Sequence record: MZ501074
DNA length: 64,000 nucleotides
Direction: 5' to 3' (one strand)
From: Escherichia phage HildyBeyeler
The notes beneath the pieces were generated by a model that worked only from the letters and a program-made list of their open reading frames with translations, was not told the origin of the DNA and did not search any database. Position numbers and translations under genes: made by a program. Shown one piece after another: positions 2,765-12,607 of the stretch. The stretch's first letter is position 1. Each line of letters opens with the position of its first letter.

Positions 2765-5324
2765 CGAGAATCCTTTTCACGTTATCCAGATCTTTACATA
2801 TAGCAATAAACTTATCGTCCTTGTACTTGCTATGATCTGGATGCTCTTTATCCATTGCAGCTAATTTCTTATACTCGAACTCTGCATCAAGTAATACACC
2901 CTTGACATAGCGAGTATATTCATCATCATCAATACAAGCGATTGATGGGTGCTGTTTCTTCATCTTACCACAAGAATAGTCACGAGAACCTCCAGCTTCA
3001 GAATCTGAATCAATACCAATCGGACAGCCAGGAATACTGATACCACGGTCTTTCTGAATATTACGAATCAGGATTTCATTGTATTGGTCGATTAAGTCTT
3101 CACGAACAATAGCAACTACGGAGTCATGAACCAGCATAACAATCTTCATCTCTTGCTCTAGGCCAAGAGAAATGATCTCATTATCTGCATCTACAGCACC
3201 TAAAAGGAGACTATCAGAAGAAGCAGACTGAATGATTGCGTTAAATCCAGAACGAATTTCTTCCCCCTGAACGCCACGATCTTCAGAATGGATATTATGC
3301 AGACGACGTTTACGACCAAAGTGACTATAGATAAATCCATGATTCTTGATCTGATCGTGGCACTTATCGATCCAACGCTTAAGCTGTGGGAATTGACCAA
3401 AGTAAGTCTCAATGTACTCTTTAGCATCTGCAACAGTACACTCTACAAACGGTTCCCCAGTTTTAGCTGCTTGTTCGAGCAATGCTTCGTTAACAGAATG
3501 TGCTACTTTAGCTGGGCCAGAACCATACAGAATACCAAAGGTGATTGCTTTAGCTGCTTGACGCAGAGCTGGGAATAACTTTTTAACATCACGAGGTTCG
3601 CATTGGAGCTTAAATACCATGTGTGCGATGTTAGAGTGGAAGTCAGGGTATTTATCAGGTTCATTTCTCATGTTGATAAATACTTGTTGCATATTTCTAT
3701 CACCAGATAGAGCAGCAGCATAATAAACTTCCGCAGTTGTTAAGTCCCACGCGATTACACGATACCCAGGAGGAGCTACTACACAACCCTTGATAATAGA
3801 TTCATCACGAGGTAACTGTTGCAGGTTCAGTTTACCAGAAGAACTCAGACGACCAGAAGTGGTCATATGTTCATGGAAACCAGTACGAATGCACCCATCT
3901 GCATCAATACTCAGAAGAATCTTCTCAACATAAGTAGAGATTAGCTTAGTCAGCTTACGAATCTCTAGCAGAGTTTTAGCAATTGGATGCTGCGTAGCCA
4001 GTTCATTCAGAGCTTCTGCATCCGTAGAATCTGCACCAGTATCTGTTAACTTACCAGTTGGAGTCAAACCAACATAATCGAACAGAAGAACACGAAGTTG
4101 TTTAACAGAGTTCGGGTTAAATGCTTCATTCTGATCTTGTTCTAGCTGTTTAACTTCTGGATAAGTGTACAGTTTCTCACGGGCTTTATTCAGGTTATGG
4201 GTTAACTGATACTGAGCTTCTTTCAAACGATCAATAGAGATAGGTACGCCACGATCTTCGACACGTTGTAAGAATACGCAACCAGGCATCAAAACATCGT
4301 AATACAGACTACAAAGTTTTTCATTCTTCTCAATCTTTGGTAAGAAGAAGTTGTGTAAACGTAGGGTAGCATCTGTATCTTTCGCAGCATATGGCCACAT
4401 AATATCAAATGGAATTAAATCATAGGTGAAATCTTCTTTCTTGATTTTATGTGCTTTGCAGTAATCATCTTTGAACTTATCTAGTTCGAAGTCATAGTCA
4501 CCCATATCGGTATACTTCATTGCTAGGGATTTCAAGCCATGAGTACCCCGACGTTCGTCTAGAACATAGTGCTGCAACATGGTATCATGGAGCCTGCGTT
4601 CTTTATGTGCTTTATCAAAAGTAAGCCCCAGATGGTACTTATAAAAGTGCATATCAAACTTTAAGTTGTGAAAAACAATAGTGTGGTTTTCACTATCTAG
4701 AATTTTCTGGAGATAATATACTGCAACCTCTGTGAGACAATCAGAATCGATATATACACCCTGATATTCTTGGTGAGATATAGAAACACCAAGCAGATAA
4801 CCATCTCGACAGTATAGTGCTGAGGTTTCGGAGTCGAATGCGACGGGTCCGATAACCATATTATACACCATCTTGATATATTCTTCCGCCTCGTCAGGGT
4901 CAGTAATAGGACGGTAATCACCAGCTTTTGCAATCTTCTCACGACCATTGATAATATCGTGGATATTCTCTACTGTTGCATCAAAAACTGGTTTCATTTC
5001 AGGCTTAAAGTGTAACTGGGCTGGGCTGATACTCGCAATCCAGTTAGCATATCCATTATATTCTACACGTTTACCAGTATAGTCACCAATGCCTTTCTTA
5101 CCTGCGAAATACAGGAAAGGTTCAGCACCTACTAGTATAACAAAATCATAATCATTCGGATCAAACGGGTTTTCTGGTGTTCCAATAGTAATGTGCTTTT
5201 TAAGCAAACGACCAGATAACTTCTCGTTACACATATGGAATACATCAACTTCCTCGCCGTATAGCTGGAAATGTTTATCGTAACGAGTGTTACTTAGAGC
5301 TTTATCAACTACTGCGATTTTCAA
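2757..5324 (-). CDS. DNA polymerase, family A (855 aa), probable TTG start
   Basis: 3'-5' exonuclease and polymerase motifs (KAITFGILYGSG, LVHDS); 855 aa as in T5 DNA polymerase; GAGGAG RBS. Confidence 0.9.
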   Translation of the reverse strand: MKIAVVDKALSNTRYDKHFQLYGEEVDVFHMCNEKLSGRLLKKHITIGTPENPFDPNDYDFVILVGAEPFLYFAGKKGIGDYTGKRVEYNGYANWIASISPAQLHFKPEMKPVFDATVENIHDIINGREKIAKAGDYRPITDPDEAEEYIKMVYNMVIGPVAFDSETSALYCRDGYLLGVSISHQEYQGVYIDSDCLTEVAVYYLQKILDSENHTIVFHNLKFDMHFYKYHLGLTFDKAHKERRLHDTMLQHYVLDERRGTHGLKSLAMKYTDMGDYDFELDKFKDDYCKAHKIKKEDFTYDLIPFDIMWPYAAKDTDATLRLHNFFLPKIEKNEKLCSLYYDVLMPGCVFLQRVEDRGVPISIDRLKEAQYQLTHNLNKAREKLYTYPEVKQLEQDQNEAFNPNSVKQLRVLLFDYVGLTPTGKLTDTGADSTDAEALNELATQHPIAKTLLEIRKLTKLISTYVEKILLSIDADGCIRTGFHEHMTTSGRLSSSGKLNLQQLPRDESIIKGCVVAPPGYRVIAWDLTTAEVYYAAALSGDRNMQQVFINMRNEPDKYPDFHSNIAHMVFKLQCEPRDVKKLFPALRQAAKAITFGILYGSGPAKVAHSVNEALLEQAAKTGEPFVECTVADAKEYIETYFGQFPQLKRWIDKCHDQIKNHGFIYSHFGRKRRLHNIHSEDRGVQGEEIRSGFNAIIQSASSDSLLLGAVDADNEIISLGLEQEMKIVMLVHDSVVAIVREDLIDQYNEILIRNIQKDRGISIPGCPIGIDSDSEAGGSRDYSCGKMKKQHPSIACIDDDEYTRYVKGVLLDAEFEYKKLAAMDKEHPDHSKYKDDKFIAICKDLDNVKRILGA

Positions 5325-5385
5325 ATTTAATCTCCTCTTGGTAAGTAAGTATAACTTCAGTGTTTCTTCTCTAACTTACCAATAT

Positions 5386-5415
5386 ATTATACCAAATCTT
5401 TAAGCGATTCAGCAA
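5386..5415 (-). promoter_or_regulatory. sigma70 promoter upstream of the DNA polymerase gene (TTGCTG, 18 bp, TATAAT)
   Basis: Hexamers overlap the 3' end of the primase gene. Confidence 0.5.
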
Positions 5416-6277
5416 CTAAAATTTCAATACGTTTTGCTAACATATCAATTTCATCTTTGTTTAAATCACCTGGATCCTTGCCTTCTGGCAGAAGAAAGTT
5501 AGCCACTACAGGTGTTAAACGCGTTTTTGTACGAATTAGCTTGGCCAATGCTTGTGCAGCTTTATTACCAGAAGCATCATTATCTAGTAAGATAACAACA
5601 ACTTTTACACCGGCAATAATATAAGGACTGAACTTATCTGCAATGTTATCCGAAGTAAACTGATGGGTACCAAAGCAGCAAGAAGCATAGTCTATACCAT
5701 TATCCTCTAGGTTCAGCATATCAAAGATGCCTTCAACTAGAATAAGAACTGGAGTATTATATCGTACAGGAAAAATTGGCGGTGAAACTTGTTTTGGTTT
5801 TACTAAGTATTTAGGAGGGGCAGAACTGTTTATAGAACGACCCAAAAATAGGATATTGCGTCCAACAGCATCTGTGATTGGGAATACAATTCTGCCTTCC
5901 CAGCTCTCTTGGTGTTGGAAAGCAAAATATTTCTTCAAGGTCTTAGAACTGATACCTCGGAAATCACCTTCGAAAAGGCAGGCAGACTCAGGTATTGCAA
6001 GATTCATAGATCCATTTCTAATTTCTGAAATCTTTTTTCGTACCTGTGATAGTCTTGGGGACTGTCGGTACTGAGCCTCATTAAAATAATGGTAAATGCT
6101 CGGTATACCTTTACCGAAGCCACAACTCAAGCAGTGCATGACCCCTGACTCGGGGTCAATACGTAGACTTGGATGTTTATCATCATGTTCAGGATTCAGG
6201 CAGCATATAAGAATATCCCCGCCTGTATCCTTGTACTCAATTCCTTTTAGATCAAGTAGTTCTGTTATTCTACTCAT
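5387..6277 (-). CDS. DNA primase, DnaG-like (296 aa)
   Basis: Zinc-binding Cys/His cluster (CLNPEHDDKHP...CLSCGFGKG) and TOPRIM-like EGIFDMLNLED. Confidence 0.75.
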   Translation of the reverse strand: MSRITELLDLKGIEYKDTGGDILICCLNPEHDDKHPSLRIDPESGVMHCLSCGFGKGIPSIYHYFNEAQYRQSPRLSQVRKKISEIRNGSMNLAIPESACLFEGDFRGISSKTLKKYFAFQHQESWEGRIVFPITDAVGRNILFLGRSINSSAPPKYLVKPKQVSPPIFPVRYNTPVLILVEGIFDMLNLEDNGIDYASCCFGTHQFTSDNIADKFSPYIIAGVKVVVILLDNDASGNKAAQALAKLIRTKTRLTPVVANFLLPEGKDPGDLNKDEIDMLAKRIEILVAESLKDLV

Positions 6278-7740
6278 ATATCGCTGGCCTGTTCACCTGT
6301 TGAATTTTCAGTTTTATCTTTCTTAGCACGTTTAGATTGAGCTGGCTTATCCTTTTCAATAGGGATAATGAACTCAGCTTCCATTTGAGATATATCTTCC
6401 ATTGCTAGGTTGGTAGTGTTATCCATCCGCAGAGTTTCCCAGTTCATCTTAGGCATAAACTTCACGCTACCAGAAGAACGGGTCTTAACGAAGTCAAACA
6501 TAATAGCACCTTGACCATTATCAGCTTTTGCAGCATTAAGATTAGCAGCCATGTCTGCGGAATCAAGAATCCCCTTTGACATACGTGTTCTACCATCTTG
6601 ATCGATCTGGTAAGGAGCTACGCCAGCCACGTTATGTTTCTGGCAGATAGATTTGAAAGACGAGCTAACAACCATCTGTTCTTTCCAGTCATACATATCA
6701 ATGGTTTTAGAATCTGGAAGTCGGGTTTGGTTAATATAGTCAAGTAAAGCTACTGTAACCTTATCCCCATATCTAGCAACTAATTTATTTAACTCTACGT
6801 CAACTGTTGTAATAGACAGCTCAGGGTCATAAACAATAATCATAGGAGTATGTAGCTCATATCCTTCTATTAGCTTACTTTCCATATCGTAGAAATCACT
6901 CATCTTAGCCATTGTGTACTGTTTAACGAAGTTATCGAAAAGCTCTTCACCACCATTAAACATTCTAGCTCTAGTTCTGGCTAATCTCAACAGAGCTGCA
7001 CCTTCTAGAGTATTATTACGCATTGCTAATGCTGATACACCAGCTAACATGGCTAGATTACGTCTAAATACTTCATGTTCTTTCATCTCAATTGAGAAGT
7101 ATGGAGCAATATCCCCATTCAAATATTGCTGAACCTGTATGTTTGAACAGATAATGGATTTACCAGTACCACGCCAACCACCAAGCAGTAACGTTTCTGT
7201 GCGAGCTAAACCAATTTGAGCGTCGAACTCATTACAAATACCAAGAGCGATTAAATTCAGTTTGGTATCTTCTTCTCTCTGGAAAATACGCATGTTATCT
7301 GCGTTGAATACTTTCCCAGTATTCGTTACTTTCTCTTCTAATTTTAAGTGAAGGGAGGCAACTCGGTTAAGAATTTCTCCCTGATCCAGCATTGTTAAAT
7401 CTTGAAGCACGTCTGTTTCTAGAAGCTTCAGGAATAAATCCTGTGTATACTCGGCCTCTAGGACTTCAAGTGCCTGTTCCATGCTAACTTCTGGAATTTG
7501 AGTGTTAGCTAAAACGACTAGAGCTTGAGAAAGGCGGGCGTTCCTATTAGCCTCAAGCATCAGTGCGTCAATGGACGGCATTGTGTTATATTTTTTATAA
7601 TAATTCTGGACGGCTTGGTAAATTGAGGAGAAAGCGTCATTAAAATGATCTTTATGCAGTTTTGAGAATGTTTCCAATGCTATTTGCTTCTGTTCGGAAG
7701 CTAGAAGCATCTTCAACACTACAGCTTGCACGTTAAACAT
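6274..7740 (-). CDS. replicative DNA helicase, DnaB-like (488 aa)
   Basis: RecA-like core with P-loop GGWRGTGKS; adjacent and translationally coupled to the primase gene. Confidence 0.65.
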   Translation of the reverse strand: MFNVQAVVLKMLLASEQKQIALETFSKLHKDHFNDAFSSIYQAVQNYYKKYNTMPSIDALMLEANRNARLSQALVVLANTQIPEVSMEQALEVLEAEYTQDLFLKLLETDVLQDLTMLDQGEILNRVASLHLKLEEKVTNTGKVFNADNMRIFQREEDTKLNLIALGICNEFDAQIGLARTETLLLGGWRGTGKSIICSNIQVQQYLNGDIAPYFSIEMKEHEVFRRNLAMLAGVSALAMRNNTLEGAALLRLARTRARMFNGGEELFDNFVKQYTMAKMSDFYDMESKLIEGYELHTPMIIVYDPELSITTVDVELNKLVARYGDKVTVALLDYINQTRLPDSKTIDMYDWKEQMVVSSSFKSICQKHNVAGVAPYQIDQDGRTRMSKGILDSADMAANLNAAKADNGQGAIMFDFVKTRSSGSVKFMPKMNWETLRMDNTTNLAMEDISQMEAEFIIPIEKDKPAQSKRAKKDKTENSTGEQASDI

Positions 7741-8314
7741 TATTTAGCAACTCCTCTGTAAAGTTATCCGCTATATTCTGCGGTTTAACCCTCTCTATAT
7801 CTAGAGCATCTAGGGCTGCGAAATCTCCGTACAAGGCTAAAAGCAGCTTATCTCTATACCACAGAGCTTCTCCTAGAGTTTTTAGGGTTTTTCTAAATAC
7901 TTTGGAGTTTTTAGATATGGTTACTTTAAATGTGTTATTTTTTGTTACTTCTATGTTACGAATGCCTAGCTTGTTACCTATAAAGCTATTAGCGGAATTT
8001 TGAGAGGAAGTAACTTCACGTAAGTTATTCCAAGTATTATCAGTTTTAATTCTATTTTTATGATCAACCTTGTCAGGGATTTCTCCTTCCATATATAGAA
8101 AGGCCCACCTATGCGCTCCCATAGATTTTTGTATACCTGACTCTAAGGTTATCTTTATGTAAATATAGCCTGATGAATGCATATAGCCTGCAGGTTTGTT
8201 AGCGTGCTTAGCATTGAACGCAGGATTATTTTCTCTAGGTAGCCAGTAGAAATTTCCAGTATCAGGCTCATATCTTAATAATGTTTTAAGATACTGCTGG
8301 GTAATCTCCCCCAT
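7733..8314 (-). CDS. HNH homing endonuclease (193 aa)
   Basis: HNH motif VDHKNRIKTDNTWNNLR plus an AP2-like C-terminal segment. Confidence 0.8.
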   Translation of the reverse strand: MGEITQQYLKTLLRYEPDTGNFYWLPRENNPAFNAKHANKPAGYMHSSGYIYIKITLESGIQKSMGAHRWAFLYMEGEIPDKVDHKNRIKTDNTWNNLREVTSSQNSANSFIGNKLGIRNIEVTKNNTFKVTISKNSKVFRKTLKTLGEALWYRDKLLLALYGDFAALDALDIERVKPQNIADNFTEELLNNV

Positions 8315-8373
8315 TATGTAGCCTTCTAATATACAAGAAAGGAGAACCGAAGTTCTCCTTATCTGCCTTCTAA

Positions 8374-9141
8374 TTATTCAGCAGCCGCAGCTTTTGCATC
8401 CAGTTTAGCACGCTTAGCGGCACCATCATAGTCCTTAGCAACCAGACCACGACGAGACAGCATAGATTTAACACCGCGCTCAGACTTACCAGTTTTCTCA
8501 GCGATCTCAGCAACAGTCATGTTAACCAGATCCAGACCTTCTAACAGATCTTCACGAGTTTTAGCACTTGAGGTTTCCTGTACCGGCATAGCAGCGATAC
8601 GACCTTCACGAAGCAGACTCAGAGCTTTACCACGGATCTGTTTGATATTACGACCGAAGTGAGCAGCGATAGCTTCAATAGTAGCCCCAGCAACAACCTG
8701 ATTAACAAAGTCAGTTTCTTCATCCGGAGTGAAGGAACGAACAGCAGCAGTTTTTTCGGTTGGTTTAACAGAAGCGGTCATTTCCAGACTCAGGATCTTA
8801 CCCTGTACCTGTTTAGCACCGAACTGACCACCAGCCACAGCAGCAGCGATTTCAGCATAAGTATACTGACCAGCATGAGCGTTCAGGAAATCAACCAGTT
8901 CAGCTTCCTGCTCAGGAGTCCACGGGGATTTCTGTACTTCGTTAGCTTTCTGTACTTCAAAACCTTCTTTACGCAGTTTAGAGCCAACAGAGCGAGCAGT
9001 AACATCTTTGCCAGTTTCAGCAGCCAGTTCAGCGGCGATAGCAGCTACTTGTTCTTGAGAGATTACATCAACACCCAGAGCAGTGGCTTTTGCTTTCAGA
9101 GACTCGGTTACACCTTCTACGTTCCAGTTCAGTTTAGACAT
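8374..9141 (-). CDS. DNA-binding protein with three tandem HTH-like repeats (255 aa)
   Basis: Three internal repeats of the form TxAEIAxxxGxxxxxxxGKxLSL; Ala-rich. Confidence 0.5.
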   Translation of the reverse strand: MSKLNWNVEGVTESLKAKATALGVDVISQEQVAAIAAELAAETGKDVTARSVGSKLRKEGFEVQKANEVQKSPWTPEQEAELVDFLNAHAGQYTYAEIAAAVAGGQFGAKQVQGKILSLEMTASVKPTEKTAAVRSFTPDEETDFVNQVVAGATIEAIAAHFGRNIKQIRGKALSLLREGRIAAMPVQETSSAKTREDLLEGLDLVNMTVAEIAEKTGKSERGVKSMLSRRGLVAKDYDGAAKRAKLDAKAAAAE

Positions 9142-9916
9142 TATTATTTTTCTCCAATAGTTCTTTAATCGACAGGATTTCTATCCCATTCGTTTCGGCT
9201 TTCTTATAAGATGAGGAAGAACGCTTCGATTCATCCTCACAGATTAGGTATTTGACGTCTTTGGTAACGGATTTCTTAACCGTATATCCTAGACCTTCTA
9301 AATAGTTTGTTGCATCCGTTCTATTTGCAAAATCTTGCAAAGATCCGGTAATACATACCGCGATTCCATTTGGCTGGGCAGCTAATTCATCCGTAGTGAT
9401 AATATTAGCTTTAGTGCCCTTAATACCAGTTGAGAATTTCCACGGTAGTTCGATAACATCCTTGCCTTGTGGGGAATTTAGCCAGGCTTTGTAATTTTCT
9501 CCAGCCTTGCCGTCAGCCTTCACATCATGGAAGCTAGTGCAATTTTGGGATAATTTCTTTGCTGCAACCTCTCCAATTAGAGGGATTCCTAAAGAACCGA
9601 GAACTGAACCAAAGTCAATGTCTCCGCGAACTTTAGTATTTAATTCGCTAGTTAACTTAGCGGCAACCTTGCTACCCACGGCTCTAACCAAATCTTCTTC
9701 GGTTAGGTAAAATAGTTCTGAAATCTTCGTCAGCTCCAGCTTCTCAATAGTTTTTGGGCCAAAGCCCTTTAACTTCATTTTTGAACAGAAGTTCTCAATT
9801 AACTTGCTTGATTGCGCTGGACAGTTGGACTTATTACGACAGAATAATTGTCCGTTGACAAGATCTAGCTTAGAACCACAAGAGGGACATTGTGTTGGAA
9901 TTTCGATTTTCATCAA
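9134..9916 (-). CDS. ligB: NAD-dependent DNA ligase, C-terminal subunit (zinc finger, HhH, BRCT)
   Basis: N-terminal Cys4 zinc finger CPSCGS...CRNKSNC, helix-hairpin-helix region and BRCT-like C-terminus. Confidence 0.8.
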   Translation of the reverse strand: MMKIEIPTQCPSCGSKLDLVNGQLFCRNKSNCPAQSSKLIENFCSKMKLKGFGPKTIEKLELTKISELFYLTEEDLVRAVGSKVAAKLTSELNTKVRGDIDFGSVLGSLGIPLIGEVAAKKLSQNCTSFHDVKADGKAGENYKAWLNSPQGKDVIELPWKFSTGIKGTKANIITTDELAAQPNGIAVCITGSLQDFANRTDATNYLEGLGYTVKKSVTKDVKYLICEDESKRSSSSYKKAETNGIEILSIKELLEKNNNV

Positions 9917-9943
9917 ATTTCTTCCTTATCAATTTATATAAAT

Positions 9944-9972
9944 ATTATAGCAAGTATTTAAGCATTTAGCAA
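9944..9972 (-). promoter_or_regulatory. sigma70 promoter between the two ligase genes (TTGCTA, 17 bp, TATAAT)
   Basis: Consensus hexamers followed by AAGGAAG RBS and the ligB start. Confidence 0.65.
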
Positions 9973-10115
9973 CTACAATTTTAATTAACTTTGCTTACCC
10001 TCGCCATAACTTTCTATCCCTCAACTGAATGATAATAGTATATACCTAAGCGGCGAAAATGTCAATAACCACTTTATAATTCCGATATGGTAGATGGGTA
10101 GCAAAGGGTTATGTA

Positions 10116-11087
10116 TTAATCGTATACTCGCTCTACTATGCACGGGATTACACCACCAGCACGAATCACTCGAATCTGGCAACCGATCTCTAGATCGAGA
10201 GAGTTAATATAATCAACGTTATTAAGAGTTGCTTTAACAATTGTAGCATCATCAATAATTACCGGTTCAAAATAACCAACTGGAGTTACTTTACCCGAAG
10301 CCCCCACCTGCCATTCAACTTTAGTAAGAGTTGTAATCTCGCCTTCTTCATCCTCTTTAATAGCGAATGCTCCACGAGGGAATTTATTAGTCCAGCCTTC
10401 ACGGAAGAATTTGTTGTTATCATTAATACGAACAACTTTACCGTCCGTCGGAATCCATTTAAAGAAGGAACGCACATTAACAACTGTTAAGAAGTTCTCA
10501 TTCTCCAGCCAAAGCATATCTTTTAAGTATGATTCTGTAATACCTACAGATTCAGCAGAACACTGGATACCATATGCAACGAAGATTAAACCACCTTCCC
10601 CAATGCGTTGTACGAAATCATCACTATCTTTGAGGTTAATAGCACCAGAGGCAAAGTTACGTTTATTTTCTACTTCTTTTGTAATTAGAACTTCACCAGT
10701 TATTTGAGTAGGTACTTTTTGGGAAATCTTTTTAGGAATATTCAGCAATCTTACGTTGCTTGTGACATCATTCCCTAGAATACCGTTACCACGAGTTAGT
10801 GCTTGAACAAATTCGCCGTTAATATACAGCAGAGAAATTGCACAACCATCTAACTTATCGGTTTCCACCTGACCTAAAGGATTGAATGGTGGTTTATCAC
10901 CACGGTTATAGTAAACTTTCTGTAAAGAATACATACGATATAGATGTGGAATATCACCCTTAGGCCCGATCTCTTCCTCTAATGGGAAGCGTTTTACCAG
11001 ACGATCATATTCTTCATCAGAGATTAAAGACATTCCCTGGTAATATGCTTCTTGGCAACGTTTAATAAAGTCTTTTACATTAGTCAT
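10116..11087 (-). CDS. ligA: NAD-dependent DNA ligase, N-terminal adenylation/OB subunit
   Basis: Adenylation motif KLDG (TDKLDGCAISLLY), Ia domain and OB fold; lacks the zinc-finger and BRCT parts. Confidence 0.85.
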   Translation of the reverse strand: MTNVKDFIKRCQEAYYQGMSLISDEEYDRLVKRFPLEEEIGPKGDIPHLYRMYSLQKVYYNRGDKPPFNPLGQVETDKLDGCAISLLYINGEFVQALTRGNGILGNDVTSNVRLLNIPKKISQKVPTQITGEVLITKEVENKRNFASGAINLKDSDDFVQRIGEGGLIFVAYGIQCSAESVGITESYLKDMLWLENENFLTVVNVRSFFKWIPTDGKVVRINDNNKFFREGWTNKFPRGAFAIKEDEEGEITTLTKVEWQVGASGKVTPVGYFEPVIIDDATIVKATLNNVDYINSLDLEIGCQIRVIRAGGVIPCIVERVYD

Positions 11088-11360
11088 TTATTCTGCCTCA
11101 TAGTACGTGGGTTGTCTGGTAGATCCGTGCCACGTATAATTTTTGCAAAGATGCAAATATGTAGTTTTTACTAGCCTATCCGATAATGGAGAGTATATTT
11201 CAGCTATTAATACTTCTTTTTCGTAATAAAGTGAAATCAGTTTATACCCAGCTCTAGTTTTAGTATACTTTTCCCCATTAATCTTTTCCTCCCACATGAG
11301 TATGAGAGGCTGTCCGATATATGGAAAAGGTTTAAGTGTACTTATATGTATCTTTTTCAC
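11088..11360 (-). CDS. hypothetical protein (90 aa)
   Basis: ORF directly downstream of minus-strand promoter 11391-11419. Confidence 0.5.
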   Translation of the reverse strand: MKKIHISTLKPFPYIGQPLILMWEEKINGEKYTKTRAGYKLISLYYEKEVLIAEIYSPLSDRLVKTTYLHLCKNYTWHGSTRQPTYYEAE

Positions 11361-11390
11361 TTTGCAACCCTCTCATTAATTTATATAAAT

Positions 11391-11419
11391 ATTATATAAC
11401 AAAACTGAGTTGAAAGCAA
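11391..11419 (-). promoter_or_regulatory. sigma70 promoter (TTGCTT, 17 bp, TATAAT)
   Basis: Consensus hexamers with downstream TAAATTAATGAGAG box. Confidence 0.65.
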
Positions 11420-11446
11420 ATACATTTATAAAGAAAAAGCCAAGAA

Positions 11447-11755
11447 CTAGGCATTCTTGGCTTTGAGTTCTTCAGCTCGTTTCTGTACTTCATGTAAAAC
11501 CTCAGATTCGCTAAGAATCTGTGTAAACGCATAGAAAAGCTGTGATGTTGTTTCTAGGGTGTAAGGAAAAGAGAAGCCAGATTTCGTTGGAAACCATTCA
11601 TCATTAATATCAAGAAGCCAGTAACGAATACCCATGTATAGATTCCCACGAAATTCAGATACTGTTAATCTTACTTGTTCCCCCTCCCTCTCCCAAAGTA
11701 TGATGGACTGGTCATCAACGTGTCCTTCATAGTTTTGATTTACCTGTTCGCTCAT
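11447..11755 (-). CDS. hypothetical protein (102 aa)
   Basis: ORF track; co-oriented early gene. Confidence 0.5.
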   Translation of the reverse strand: MSEQVNQNYEGHVDDQSIILWEREGEQVRLTVSEFRGNLYMGIRYWLLDINDEWFPTKSGFSFPYTLETTSQLFYAFTQILSESEVLHEVQKRAEELKAKNA

Positions 11756-11805
11756 TTACATATCCCAAATACACAAAAAGCCCCATATAGGGGCTAATTG
11801 TTTTC

Positions 11806-12102
11806 TTATCGGCCTACTGGAGAAGCACGATCTAACTCTGATTGGAGGCTAGTCACACGACGAACTTTCTCAACAGGAATAAAACGGAAGCTATCATTAG
11901 TACGAGAGAAGACAAGGATTTCGTCATCTTTTGGTTGACGGATACGTTCGCGTTTAATACGCTCCGCCAGATATTTATCTTGGGCCGGATCAAATTCCAT
12001 TGTACCCTGAAGATATGTGGTTCCTTTCTGACGAAGTTTCTCGTAATGAAGATAAAACTCACCAAATTTTTCACACTGTGCAATAATTTCAGCTTTAGTC
12101 AT
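11806..12102 (-). CDS. hypothetical protein (98 aa)
   Basis: ORF track; co-oriented early gene. Confidence 0.5.
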   Translation of the reverse strand: MTKAEIIAQCEKFGEFYLHYEKLRQKGTTYLQGTMEFDPAQDKYLAERIKRERIRQPKDDEILVFSRTNDSFRFIPVEKVRRVTSLQSELDRASPVGR

Positions 12103-12138
12103 AGCTATAGTTCCTTTTGTTGGTGGATTTATCTAAAA

Positions 12139-12549
12139 TTATTTAGTGATGGCTCGAATTGCTTCTGCCAGATGAGCAGCCGCTTTACCGGTCAGTTTGT
12201 CGATAATTGCATCATCCAGAAAATCTGGTGCTAAGCCAGCGTCAGAGAATGCTGAGCGAAGGTCAGCATGAGCTTGGGCTTTGGAGGTACGAGAACCACC
12301 AGAGGCTTTTTCTGCAGTAGATGCGCTAGATTTAGAAGCAGAGCCAGCAGCTTTCTTGATATACACACCTGCTTTAGTCAGCTTCATACGAAAACCGTTC
12401 GGAGTTACACCATTTTCCTGGGCAATTTCGCTAACAATTTCCATGCTAACATTCGGACGTTCATCCTCTGGGAATTGCTCCATACGAGCAACGTATTCGG
12501 AAGACATTTTTTCGAACAGTTCATCAGTCCACTGAGTTGGAGTAGTCAT
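12139..12549 (-). CDS. hypothetical protein with one HTH-like repeat (136 aa)
   Basis: Segment EIAQENGVTPNGFRMKLTKAG resembles the repeats of the 8374-9141 protein; downstream of promoter 12608-12636. Confidence 0.5.
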   Translation of the reverse strand: MTTPTQWTDELFEKMSSEYVARMEQFPEDERPNVSMEIVSEIAQENGVTPNGFRMKLTKAGVYIKKAAGSASKSSASTAEKASGGSRTSKAQAHADLRSAFSDAGLAPDFLDDAIIDKLTGKAAAHLAEAIRAITK

Positions 12550-12607
12550 ATTTTATATTTCCTTAATTAAGAATTAAACAGAATAGTTCTTTCAAACTAT
12601 GAGAATA

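What the first reader, a model, noticed from the sequence alone, without database searches (positions are those of the whole stretch)
9134..11087. NAD-dependent DNA ligase split into two genes by a 200-bp spacer with its own promoter
The adenylation/OB portion (10116-11087, KxDG motif) and the zinc-finger/HhH/BRCT portion (9134-9916) are separate ORFs. The 200-bp spacer (9917-10115) carries a consensus promoter (9944-9972) and RBS for the downstream half. This organisation suggests a past insertion, such as a lost homing-endonuclease gene or intron, or deliberately independent expression of the two halves.
Basis: partly seen in the sequence, partly recalled or inferred. Interest (0 to 1): 0.4.

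Follow-up and report, generated by a model that had tools for sequence, protein, structure and literature searches.

The report
Known two-gene T5 DNA ligase
This is the already-described two-subunit NAD-dependent DNA ligase (ligA/ligB) of a T5-like phage; the split is real, ancient and conserved, and the spacer carries conserved promoters for the second half and the gene after it, so the finding is correct but not new.

Summary
The window is a T5-like phage, 99.7% identical to Salmonella phage Tennessee. ligA (10116-11087, minus strand) encodes the Ia, adenylation and OB domains. ligB (9134-9913, minus strand) encodes the Zn-finger, HhH and BRCT domains. About 200 bp with stop codons in every frame separates them.

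The split is not an error, intron, intein or bypass. It is the ligA/ligB pair annotated in hundreds of T5-like genomes and reported for T5 in 2005. Both chains of the Providencia phage PR1 homologue sit together in PDB entries 9HU3 and 9I5I.

Comparison of about 80 loci adds detail:
- The break in the OB|Zn linker is shared by one monophyletic clade (Demerecviridae plus marine relatives).
- Both halves are under purifying selection (dN/dS 0.05-0.13).
- The spacer holds two sigma-70 promoters, not one, and they are its conserved islands.
- A promoter at a fixed distance upstream of ligB occurs in 30 of 34 distinct split loci, and a D5 homologue directly follows ligB in every complete split-clade locus examined.
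- Relatives carry variable cargo between ligA and that promoter, including homing-type endonucleases.

The window spacer itself holds no endonuclease remnant. Verdict: already known, low interest.

The parts
11436..11464 (-). Intrinsic-terminator-like hairpin (12-bp stem plus T run) that closes the upstream transcription unit
11391..11419 (-). Promoter-like site TTGCTT-17-TATAAT upstream of orf90-ligA. Its -10 and downstream block (TATAATATTTATATAAATT) are identical to those of P2.
   Evidence: Read from the sequence. The motif recurs 21 times in the window against 0.21 expected. The -35 hexamer matches only 3 of 6, so the consensus scan did not list it.
11088..11360 (-). orf90, a 90-aa protein of unknown function. 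Its stop codon abuts the ligA ATG.
   Evidence: no Pfam match
10116..11087 (-). ligA: N-terminal ligase subunit (domain Ia, adenylation domain with K78-LDG, OB fold). It ends 5-8 residues after the GGVIPxIV motif.
9914..10115 (-). Non-coding ligA-ligB spacer (199 bp counted to the TTG, 202 bp to the ATG). It has stops in all frames. The 5' third is variable and is where relatives carry inserted genes. The rest is two promoters plus an RBS.
10037..10065 (-). P1: sigma-70 promoter-like site TTGACA-17-TATACT (11 of 12). Conserved in the Klebsiella, L035 and PR1-type spacers.
9981..10007 (-). 8-codon mini-ORF (MARVSKVN) downstream of P1, preceded by GAGGGA. The peptide is not conserved in Klebsiella phages and is probably not a gene.
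9944..9972 (-). P2: sigma-70 promoter-like site TTGCTA-17-TGcTATAAT (10 of 12 plus extended -10). The -10 ends 27 nt before the TTG at 9916 (30 nt before the preferred ATG at 9913); a promoter at about this distance is found across the split clade.
9921..9926 (-). AGGAAG ribosome-binding site, 7 nt upstream of the ligB ATG
   Evidence: read from the sequence
9134..9913 (-). ligB: C-terminal ligase subunit (C4 Zn finger, HhH, BRCT). The start is taken as the ATG at 9913.
8374..9141 (-). D5-type DNA-binding protein gene. It overlaps the ligB stop by 8 nt. A homologue follows ligB directly in every complete split-clade locus checked, so it is a likely second beneficiary of P1 and P2.
8339..8360 (-). 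Terminator-like hairpin after D5. It is the first such site downstream of ligA; the only other minus-strand hit lies inside ligA, at 10814-10831.

Best explanation
This is the two-subunit NAD+-dependent DNA ligase of a T5-like phage (family Demerecviridae).

**Proposed enzyme mechanism (inferred from LigA biochemistry)**
- LigA (domain Ia, nucleotidyltransferase, OB fold) adenylates itself from NAD+ on K78.
- LigB (Zn finger, HhH, BRCT) supplies the DNA-binding half.
- The two associate non-covalently to do what single-chain LigA does, which is to encircle and seal a nick.

**Gene organisation**
- The genes were separated once, in the flexible OB|Zn linker, in an ancestor of Demerecviridae and their marine relatives. 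They have co-evolved as a pair since then.
- The spacer is a regulatory module, not debris. It carries two tandem sigma-70 promoters (P1, P2) and an RBS that start extra transcripts for the conserved ligB-D5 gene pair.
- ligA is transcribed with orf90 from an upstream promoter of the same type. No terminator-like site lies between ligA and ligB, so ligB-D5 is probably read from three promoters and ligA from one.
- The short stretch between the ligA stop and P1 is an insertion hotspot. Relatives carry free-standing endonuclease genes or accessory genes (NADAR, DprA-like) there. The window has the empty form.

**Shown here:** the ORFs, domains, break point, promoter matches and their conservation, purifying selection, monophyly of the split, and the cargo in relatives.

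**Inferred:** promoter activity in vivo, read-through from ligA, the stoichiometry consequence, and heterodimer function in this particular phage.
For: - **Identity:** 99.7% DNA identity to Salmonella phage Tennessee. [quoted passage not shown]
- **Literature:** T5 ligA AAU05253 and ligB AAU05254 are named in PMC3632103. [quoted passage not shown] 2005 in PMC1684257.
- **Solved homologue:** PDB 9HU3 and 9I5I each hold a 339-aa chain A and a 248-aa chain B. These match the two window proteins at E = 6e-104 and 6e-81. The chain A sequence is that of Providencia phage vB_PreS_PR1.
- **Domains and break point:**
- **Function of each half:** a LigN protein truncated to Ia+NTase+OB adenylates itself but cannot ligate (PMC1684257).
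- **Selection:** dN/dS is 0.05-0.13 for both halves. Spacer identity is 0.95-0.96 against 0.65-0.90 at 4-fold sites, and 0.69 against 0.41 for Klebsiella phages.
- **Promoters:** the two best minus-strand matches in 8000-12600 both fall in the spacer. They are the conserved islands of the spacer alignment. The P2 -10/downstream motif occurs 21 times in the window against 0.21 expected, always co-directional with the local genes.
- **Promoter conservation:** a promoter-like site lies within 110 nt of ligB in 30 of 34 distinct split loci, against 23 of 680 coding windows. In most loci the -10 ends 25-29 nt before the start codon.
- **Gene neighbourhood:** a D5 homologue directly follows ligB in every complete split-clade locus examined.
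- **History:** neighbour-joining trees of the A and B halves both recover one split clade and agree on its major groups.
- **Cargo in the gap:**
Against: - Nothing here measures transcription, so P1 and P2 are consensus matches backed by conservation only.
- The scan for terminators is a simple pattern search, so a non-canonical terminator after ligA cannot be excluded.
- Heterodimer formation is inferred from a homologue with about 58-61% identity whose paper I could not find.
- The trees are quick neighbour-joining trees without support values.
- The fused sister clade (L072-L075) lacks the Zn-finger cysteines, so it is an imperfect stand-in for the unsplit ancestor.
Confidence: 0.9

Rival explanations
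1. The split was created by insertion of a free-standing homing endonuclease gene into an intact ligase gene ('genes in pieces'). The endonuclease was later lost in the T5 lineage, leaving the spacer and its promoter(s) as a scar. This concerns the origin of the split and is compatible with the best explanation of present function.
For: - Klebsiella phage vB_Kpn24-P3 has a 232-aa Zn-finger+T5orf172 endonuclease ORF (phrog_681, 3e-45) that overlaps the ligA stop. Relative to the empty allele, it replaces 45 nt just upstream of P1.
- Marine relatives L065 and L066 carry T5orf172-domain ORFs in the gap.
- L080, a distantly related ligase, is split separately at the same linker. A 263-aa TnsA-like endonuclease ORF there overlaps both the ligA stop and the ligB ATG.
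- The window phage itself carries a sporadic HNH_3 endonuclease gene about 0.8 kb downstream of ligB, found in only 10 of 435 related records.
- The precedent is Aeh1 nrdA-a/mobE/nrdA-b (Friedrich et al. 2007, PMC1851037, cited).
Against: - No remnant of any gap-encoded protein is detectable in the window spacer.
- The vB_Kpn24-P3 endonuclease occurs at this site in 1 of 50,697 phage records, so it is a recent arrival in a split that was already old.
- Most of the split clade has either no ORF or non-nuclease cargo in the gap.
- The event predates all sampled lineages and cannot be reconstructed from them.
Confidence: 0.45
2. The two ORFs are an artefact or a recent pseudogenisation: a sequencing error, frameshift or nonsense mutation in a normally single-chain ligase gene.
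For: None found. It is only the default suspicion for any split gene.
Against: - The gap is 199 bp with 5-7 stops in every frame, not a 1-2 nt shift.
- The same arrangement appears in independently sequenced genomes, with a 199-bp gap in 33 surveyed loci.
- Both halves are under strong purifying selection.
- ligB has its own RBS and a conserved N-terminus.
- The two chains of a homologue were solved together.
Confidence: 0.01
3. The spacer is removed or skipped to make one polypeptide, by a self-splicing intron, a split intein with protein trans-splicing, or translational bypassing as in T4 gene 60.
For: Phage genes are known to be interrupted in all three ways (general knowledge).
Against: - No Rfam family, group I or II introns included, matches at E <= 1. 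None reaches gathering score in relatives with larger gaps.
- The spacer fold is no better than shuffled sequence (z = -1.1).
- LigA ends at the end of the OB fold and LigB starts at the Zn finger, with no extra intein-sized sequence on either side.
- The GAT after the last ligA sense codon has no in-frame landing site at ligB (read).
- The gap ranges from 34 bp to 3.8 kb among relatives, and it contains promoters and whole genes.
- PDB chain B begins at MKIQIPT, a free N-terminus.
Confidence: 0.01
4. The promoters in the spacer exist mainly for D5, an abundant early DNA-binding regulator. ligB is simply the first cistron of that operon, so 'independent expression of the ligase halves' is a by-product rather than the selected function.
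For: - A D5 homologue directly follows ligB in every complete split-clade locus examined, and at about 50% identity it is better conserved than ligB at about 40% in marine relatives.
- ligB and D5 overlap by 8 nt in the window.
- The fused relative L072 also has a D5-like gene about 170 nt after its ligase, which leaves room for its own promoter.
Against: - It does not explain why the ligase has to be split rather than having the promoter placed after it.
- No expression data are available.
- It refines the best explanation rather than replacing it.
Confidence: 0.35

Closest known systems
Bacteriophage T5 ligA/ligB (AAU05253/AAU05254; Wang et al. 2005, Virology 332:45) and their orthologues in Tequintavirus and Epseptimavirus genomes
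   Same: Same genes, order, break point, 199-bp spacer and promoters. DNA identity to T5_ev212 is about 96% and LigA protein identity is 98-99%.
   Different: Nothing of substance. The window spacer has one private substitution (TTAATTAA where the others have TTAGTTAA).
Providencia phage vB_PreS_PR1 two-chain ligase, PDB 9HU3 / 9I5I
   Same: Both subunits are homologous (E = 6e-104 and 6e-81, about 58-61% identity). The break point is the same. The gap is 174 bp with promoter blocks in the same places.
   Different: It belongs to a different genus and host, and the spacer sequence is diverged outside the promoter blocks. I found no paper describing the structure.
Single-chain bacterial LigA (E. 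coli, PDB 2OWO; Thermus filiformis, 1V9P/1DGS)
   Same: Same domain set in the same order (Ia, NTase with KxDG, OB, C4 Zn finger, HhH, BRCT), so presumably the same three-step chemistry.
   Different: It is one polypeptide. The roughly 10-16-residue OB-Zn linker seen in single-chain phage ligases is replaced here by a stop codon, 199 bp of DNA and a new start codon. The phage protein is also shorter, at 323 + 259 aa against 671 aa.
'Genes in pieces' made by free-standing homing endonucleases, e.g. Aeromonas phage Aeh1 nrdA-a / mobE / nrdA-b (Friedrich et al. 2007, PMC1851037)
   Same: An essential DNA-metabolism enzyme is split at a domain boundary into two retained ORFs whose products are expected to reassemble. 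Relatives (vB_Kpn24-P3, L080) do carry an endonuclease ORF between the halves.
   Different: The window has no endonuclease ORF and no remnant of one. The split is fixed across a whole virus family rather than sporadic. The gap carries conserved promoters.

Membership tests
NAD+-dependent DNA ligase (LigA family) | Nucleotidyltransferase (adenylation) domain with the KxDG lysine motif | tested here: met
   PF01653 at 84.4 bits against a cutoff of 27. K78-L-D-G is invariant in five diverse orthologues.
NAD+-dependent DNA ligase (LigA family) | N-terminal domain Ia that confers NAD+ specificity | tested here: inconclusive
   Residues 4-42 align with T. filiformis LigA residues 13-52, including the ISDxEYDrL signature, but at only 2.5 bits. 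Y15, Y16, Y27 and D28 are invariant among orthologues. The motif is present but statistical support is weak.
NAD+-dependent DNA ligase (LigA family) | OB-fold domain following the adenylation domain | tested here: met
   PF03120 at 78.4 bits against a cutoff of 32.9, covering residues 252-321.
NAD+-dependent DNA ligase (LigA family) | C4 zinc finger, HhH and BRCT domains | tested here: met
   Four invariant Cys (C10, C13, C26, C32 in TTG-start numbering) fall in the stretch that aligns to E. coli LigA from residue 402. BRCT PF00533 scores 32.8 bits against 21.3. HhH PF12826 scores 24.7 bits, just under its cutoff of 27.
NAD+-dependent DNA ligase (LigA family) | All domains on one polypeptide | tested here: not met
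   Two ORFs are separated by 199 bp with stops in all frames. This is what sets the T5-type enzyme apart.
T5-type two-subunit ligase (LigA + LigB) | Break in the OB|Zn linker, with LigA ending just after GGVIPxIV and LigB starting MKIxIPTxCPxCG | tested here: met
T5-type two-subunit ligase (LigA + LigB) | Orthology of both halves to annotated or solved LigA/LigB pairs | tested here: met
   98-99% protein identity to the T5_ev212 ligA and 95% to its ligB. E = 6e-104 and 6e-81 to PDB 9HU3 chains A and B. The neighbour-joining trees of the A and B halves agree on the major groups.
T5-type two-subunit ligase (LigA + LigB) | The two proteins form a complex that seals nicks | not testable with these tools
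   This is only indirect: both chains of the PR1 homologue occur in the same two PDB entries, and a truncated LigN (Ia-NTase-OB) adenylates but cannot ligate.
Genes-in-pieces created by a homing endonuclease | Endonuclease ORF, or a recognisable remnant, between the two halves | tested here: not met
   The spacer contains no ORF apart from an unconserved 8-codon one, and it shows no similarity to any gap-encoded protein of relatives (best E = 0.09 in a 240-nt target). The feature is met in relatives L003 and L080 only.
Genes-in-pieces created by a homing endonuclease | Both halves retained under purifying selection | tested here: met
   dN/dS is 0.05-0.13 for ligA and 0.10-0.11 for ligB.
Group I/II intron, intein or translational bypass | Structured self-splicing RNA, in-frame intein sequence, or matched take-off and landing codons | tested here: not met
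   No Rfam match. Fold z-score is -1.1. There are no extra residues at either junction. ligB is in a different frame from ligA.

The most novel reading that the evidence does not exclude
The ligA|ligB junction may be an ancient, selectively maintained module rather than a frozen accident.

- A promoter at a fixed distance from ligB has been kept since before Demerecviridae and their marine relatives diverged. It drives a conserved ligB-D5 pair and so uncouples the dose of the DNA-binding half from that of the catalytic half.
- The few dozen bases between the ligA stop and that promoter act as a recurrent landing pad for homing endonucleases (T5orf172 type, and TnsA-like in a separate lineage) and for NAD- and DNA-related cargo (NADAR, DprA-like).
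- The same OB|Zn linker appears to have been split at least three separate times in phage ligases.

I found no paper that states this comparative picture, but the library search was limited.
Probability: 0.4. Interest if true: 0.35.

Novelty: already known. Interest (0 to 1): 0.15.

Why it matters
The finding itself changes little. It re-identifies a feature of T5 that has been annotated since 2005 and now has a solved structure. Its value is as a clean, natural example of an essential enzyme that works as two non-covalent pieces split at a domain linker. That is useful for understanding LigA domain movements and for designing split ligases. It is also an example of how phage gene boundaries become regulatory sites and insertion hotspots. 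If the conserved internal promoter really makes LigB and D5 more abundant than LigA, it would suggest that the DNA-binding half has a role beyond ligation. That idea can be tested in T5.

Tried and rejected
- **Sequencing error or frameshift:** rejected.
- **Intron:** an Rfam search of 9500-10600 at E <= 1 found nothing. A gathering-threshold search of five relatives with larger gaps found nothing. The RNA fold of the spacer is no better than shuffles.
- **Split intein or bypass:** rejected from junction anatomy.
- **Endonuclease remnant in the spacer:** a tblastn search with every gap-encoded protein from 15 relatives against the spacer gave only noise.
- **8-codon mini-ORF after P1 (9981-10007):** not conserved as a peptide in Klebsiella phages, so it is not treated as a gene.
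- **Insertion in phage HZ_ZJUN2 (H7):** the 193-bp insertion lies upstream of ligA, not in the spacer.
- **Literature:** searches for the 9HU3 paper, for PR1 ligase work and for 'split/heterodimeric DNA ligase' found nothing beyond the 2006 LigN paper. A search for T5 transcription-start maps found Klimuk et al. 2020 (PMC7472727). Its promoter alignment is a figure that is not held as text, so I could not check whether P1 or P2 are among the mapped T5 promoters.
- **Not done:** I did not use the large protein-database searches or structure prediction. The identity of the genes was already settled, and the structure tool folds single chains only.
Full report
**What the window is.** The region 9000-11400 is 99.7% identical to Salmonella phage Tennessee and 95-97% identical to many Escherichia and Salmonella T5-like phages. 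490 phage records match, and 427 of them cover at least 80% of the query. [quoted passage not shown]

**Checking the observation.**
- ORF 10116-11087 (323 aa) matches the NAD-ligase adenylation domain (84 bits) and the OB domain (78 bits). It carries K78-LDG.
- ORF 9134-9916 (260 aa) matches BRCT and, weakly, HhH. It aligns with E. coli LigA from residue 402, the start of the Zn finger. Four cysteines are invariant among orthologues.
- The listed start is a TTG. The conserved N-terminus MKIxIPT and an AGGAAG 7 nt upstream make the ATG at 9913 the likely start.
- The spacer has 5-7 stops in each frame, and ligB is not in the ligA frame.
- These two are the best minus-strand matches in 8000-12600. 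No terminator-like site lies in the spacer.

**It is already known.** PMC3632103 names T5 ligA (AAU05253) and ligB (AAU05254). [quoted passage not shown] 2005. PDB entries 9HU3 and 9I5I each contain a 339-aa 'DNA ligase (NAD(+))' chain and a 248-aa 'DNA ligase subunit B' chain. These match the two window proteins at E = 6e-104 and 6e-81. The chain A sequence is 100% that of Providencia phage vB_PreS_PR1. I could not find a paper on that structure.

**Alternatives to a true two-gene enzyme.**
- No Rfam family matches the spacer or the larger gaps of relatives.
- The spacer RNA folds no better than shuffled sequence (z = -1.1).
- LigA stops 5-8 residues after the GGVIPxIV motif that ends the OB fold. 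LigB begins 6-8 residues before the CPxCG of the Zn finger. No extra sequence is present that could be an intein half.
- Gaps in relatives range from 34 bp to 3.8 kb.
- Error, intron, intein and bypass are therefore all rejected.

**Comparative survey.** I fetched 78 loci from IMG/VR with a LigA alignment and six annotated phage loci. I located both halves in each by tblastn.
- Thirty-three T5-like, Klebsiella-phage and related loci have a gap of 170-199 bp, nearly all exactly 199 bp.
- Proteus, Providencia and Vibrio Demerecviridae have gaps of 174-1374 bp.
- A marine metagenomic group at about 45% identity mostly has 52-71 bp. Three members have 1.1-3.8 kb.
- Ligases at 35-37% identity, and most at under 30%, are single ORFs.
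- Neighbour-joining trees of the two halves both recover one split clade and agree on its major groups. L080 and L082 are separate splits among otherwise fused, jumbo-phage-type ligases.
- All three split lineages break in the same OB|Zn linker.
- Both halves are under purifying selection, with dN/dS of 0.05-0.13.

**What the spacer is.**
- Among T5-like phages the spacer is nearly invariant.
- Against Klebsiella, L035 and PR1-type phages, the conserved islands are the P1 hexamers with the 20 nt after them, and the P2 hexamers with the AT-rich block and RBS after them.
- Spacer identity exceeds identity at 4-fold degenerate sites of the flanking genes: 0.95-0.96 against 0.65-0.90, and 0.69 against 0.41 for Klebsiella phages.
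- The P2 -10/downstream block TATAATATTTATATAAATT occurs 21 times in the window against 0.21 expected. All copies below 21 kb are on the minus strand and all above 32 kb are on the plus strand. This marks it as the phage's standard promoter type.
- An identical copy precedes orf90-ligA at 11378-11396.
- Across the split clade, 30 of 34 distinct regions upstream of ligB hold a sigma-70-like site, against 23 of 680 control windows in coding sequence. In most loci the -10 ends 25-29 nt before the start codon. This includes the marine loci whose whole gap is 52 nt.
- A D5 homologue directly follows ligB in every complete split-clade locus examined. In the window the two genes overlap by 8 nt.
- The first terminator-like site after ligA is at 8339-8360, beyond D5.
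- The likely layout is therefore: terminator, promoter, orf90-ligA, P1, P2, ligB-D5, terminator.

**Cargo in the gap.**
- In Klebsiella phage vB_Kpn24-P3 a 232-aa ORF overlaps the ligA stop. It has treble-clef Zn-finger and T5orf172 domains (Pfam) and matches phrog_681 'endonuclease' at 3e-45.
- Aligned with the empty Klebsiella allele, the insert replaces 45 nt at the ligA 3' end. P1 and P2 stay intact downstream of it.
- This endonuclease is found at this site in one record only. Paralogues at 36-40% identity sit elsewhere in T5-like genomes. That pattern suggests a mobile gene.
- Other gap cargo is a NADAR protein (Proteus phage L036, 110 bits), DprA-like proteins (Vibrio phages, phrog_768), small ORFs of unknown function, and T5orf172 ORFs in marine loci.
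- In L080 a TnsA-like endonuclease ORF (PF08722, 1e-11) overlaps the ligA stop and the ligB ATG. This is the genes-in-pieces arrangement described for Aeh1 nrdA (reference).
- The window spacer shows no similarity to any of these proteins.

**How it most likely works.**
- From established LigA biochemistry, the Ia-NTase-OB half adenylates itself from NAD+. The Zn-HhH(-BRCT) half is needed for the DNA steps.
- A LigN truncation made to mimic T5 LigA behaved that way: it adenylated but did not ligate.
- The PR1 chains occur together in two PDB entries, which argues for a stable complex.
- I therefore take LigA and LigB to be a non-covalent heterodimer.
- P1 and P2 add transcripts for ligB-D5 on top of read-through from the orf90-ligA promoter.
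- The biochemistry and the promoter activity are inferred, not shown here.

**Verdict.** Independent expression is supported by conservation. An endonuclease origin is plausible from relatives but leaves no trace in this window. An intron is excluded. The feature is already known, so interest is low. The modest additions are the second promoter, the clade-wide conservation of the ligB promoter and the ligB-D5 pairing, the insertion hotspot with endonuclease occupants, and the apparent recurrence of splits at the same linker.

Noticed in passing
window 7733-8314 (-): A 193-aa HNH_3 homing-endonuclease ORF (PF13392, 52 bits) lies between D5 and the DnaB-like helicase gene. Only 10 of 435 related phage records cover this stretch. 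The rest match only the flanks, so it is a sporadic mobile insertion about 0.8 kb downstream of ligB.
   Followed up: partly
window, 21 sites (e.g. 792, 9931, 11378, 43863, 47074): The block TATAATATTTATATAAATT (-10 hexamer plus downstream AT-rich element) recurs 21 times against 0.21 expected. All copies are on the minus strand below about 20.7 kb and on the plus strand above about 32.9 kb. This marks a phage-wide promoter class and a switch of transcription direction somewhere between 20.7 and 32.9 kb.
   Followed up: partly
L001 3581-3781 (Escherichia phage vB_EcoS_HZ_ZJUN2): An extra 66-aa ORF (phrog_8267, unknown function) sits between orf90 and ligA. It accounts for a 193-bp insertion relative to the window, so the other end of ligA is also an indel site.
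   Followed up: partly
L036 4953-5609 (Proteus-type phage, IMG/VR): A NADAR-domain protein gene (PF08719, 110 bits) occupies the ligA-ligB gap, whereas the close relative L037 has only a 60-aa ORF there. This places an NAD/ADP-ribose-related enzyme inside an NAD-dependent ligase locus.
   Followed up: no
L006 4127-4687, L039, L040, L069 (Vibrio phages); L004 1869-2501: DprA-like recombination-mediator genes (phrog_768, 2e-48) lie in the ligA-ligB gap of Vibrio Demerecviridae. In Proteus phage M4H10_20 a 'DprA' gene lies immediately upstream of ligA instead.
   Followed up: no
L072-L076 (IMG/VR, fused ligases, 571-580 aa): The fused sister clade of the split ligases lacks the CxxC...C...C Zn-finger cysteines in the region between the OB and HhH domains. 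L072 still has a D5-like gene downstream.
   Followed up: no
L065 and L067, about 4927-8748: A 3.8-kb gap between ligA and ligB in two marine contigs holds at least five substantial ORFs of 123-454 aa plus several short ones. The first is a T5orf172-domain protein (Pfam). The others were not scanned against any family library.
   Followed up: no
window 9981-10007 (-): An 8-codon ORF (MARVSKVN) with a GAGGGA Shine-Dalgarno-like sequence lies just downstream of P1. The window has TTAATTAA where all other T5-like spacers have TTAGTTAA. The peptide is not conserved in Klebsiella phages.
   Followed up: partly
window 11447-11755 (-): A 102-aa protein with a PC4-like ssDNA-binding domain (PF02229, 31.7 bits) is encoded just upstream of the orf90-ligA unit. 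The gene at the same position in T5_ev212 is annotated 'putative ssDNA-binding transcriptional regulator'.
   Followed up: no
phage collection: Five of the 490 matching phage records have two separate matching places for the ligA-ligB region. These could be duplications or large insertions and were not examined.
   Followed up: no
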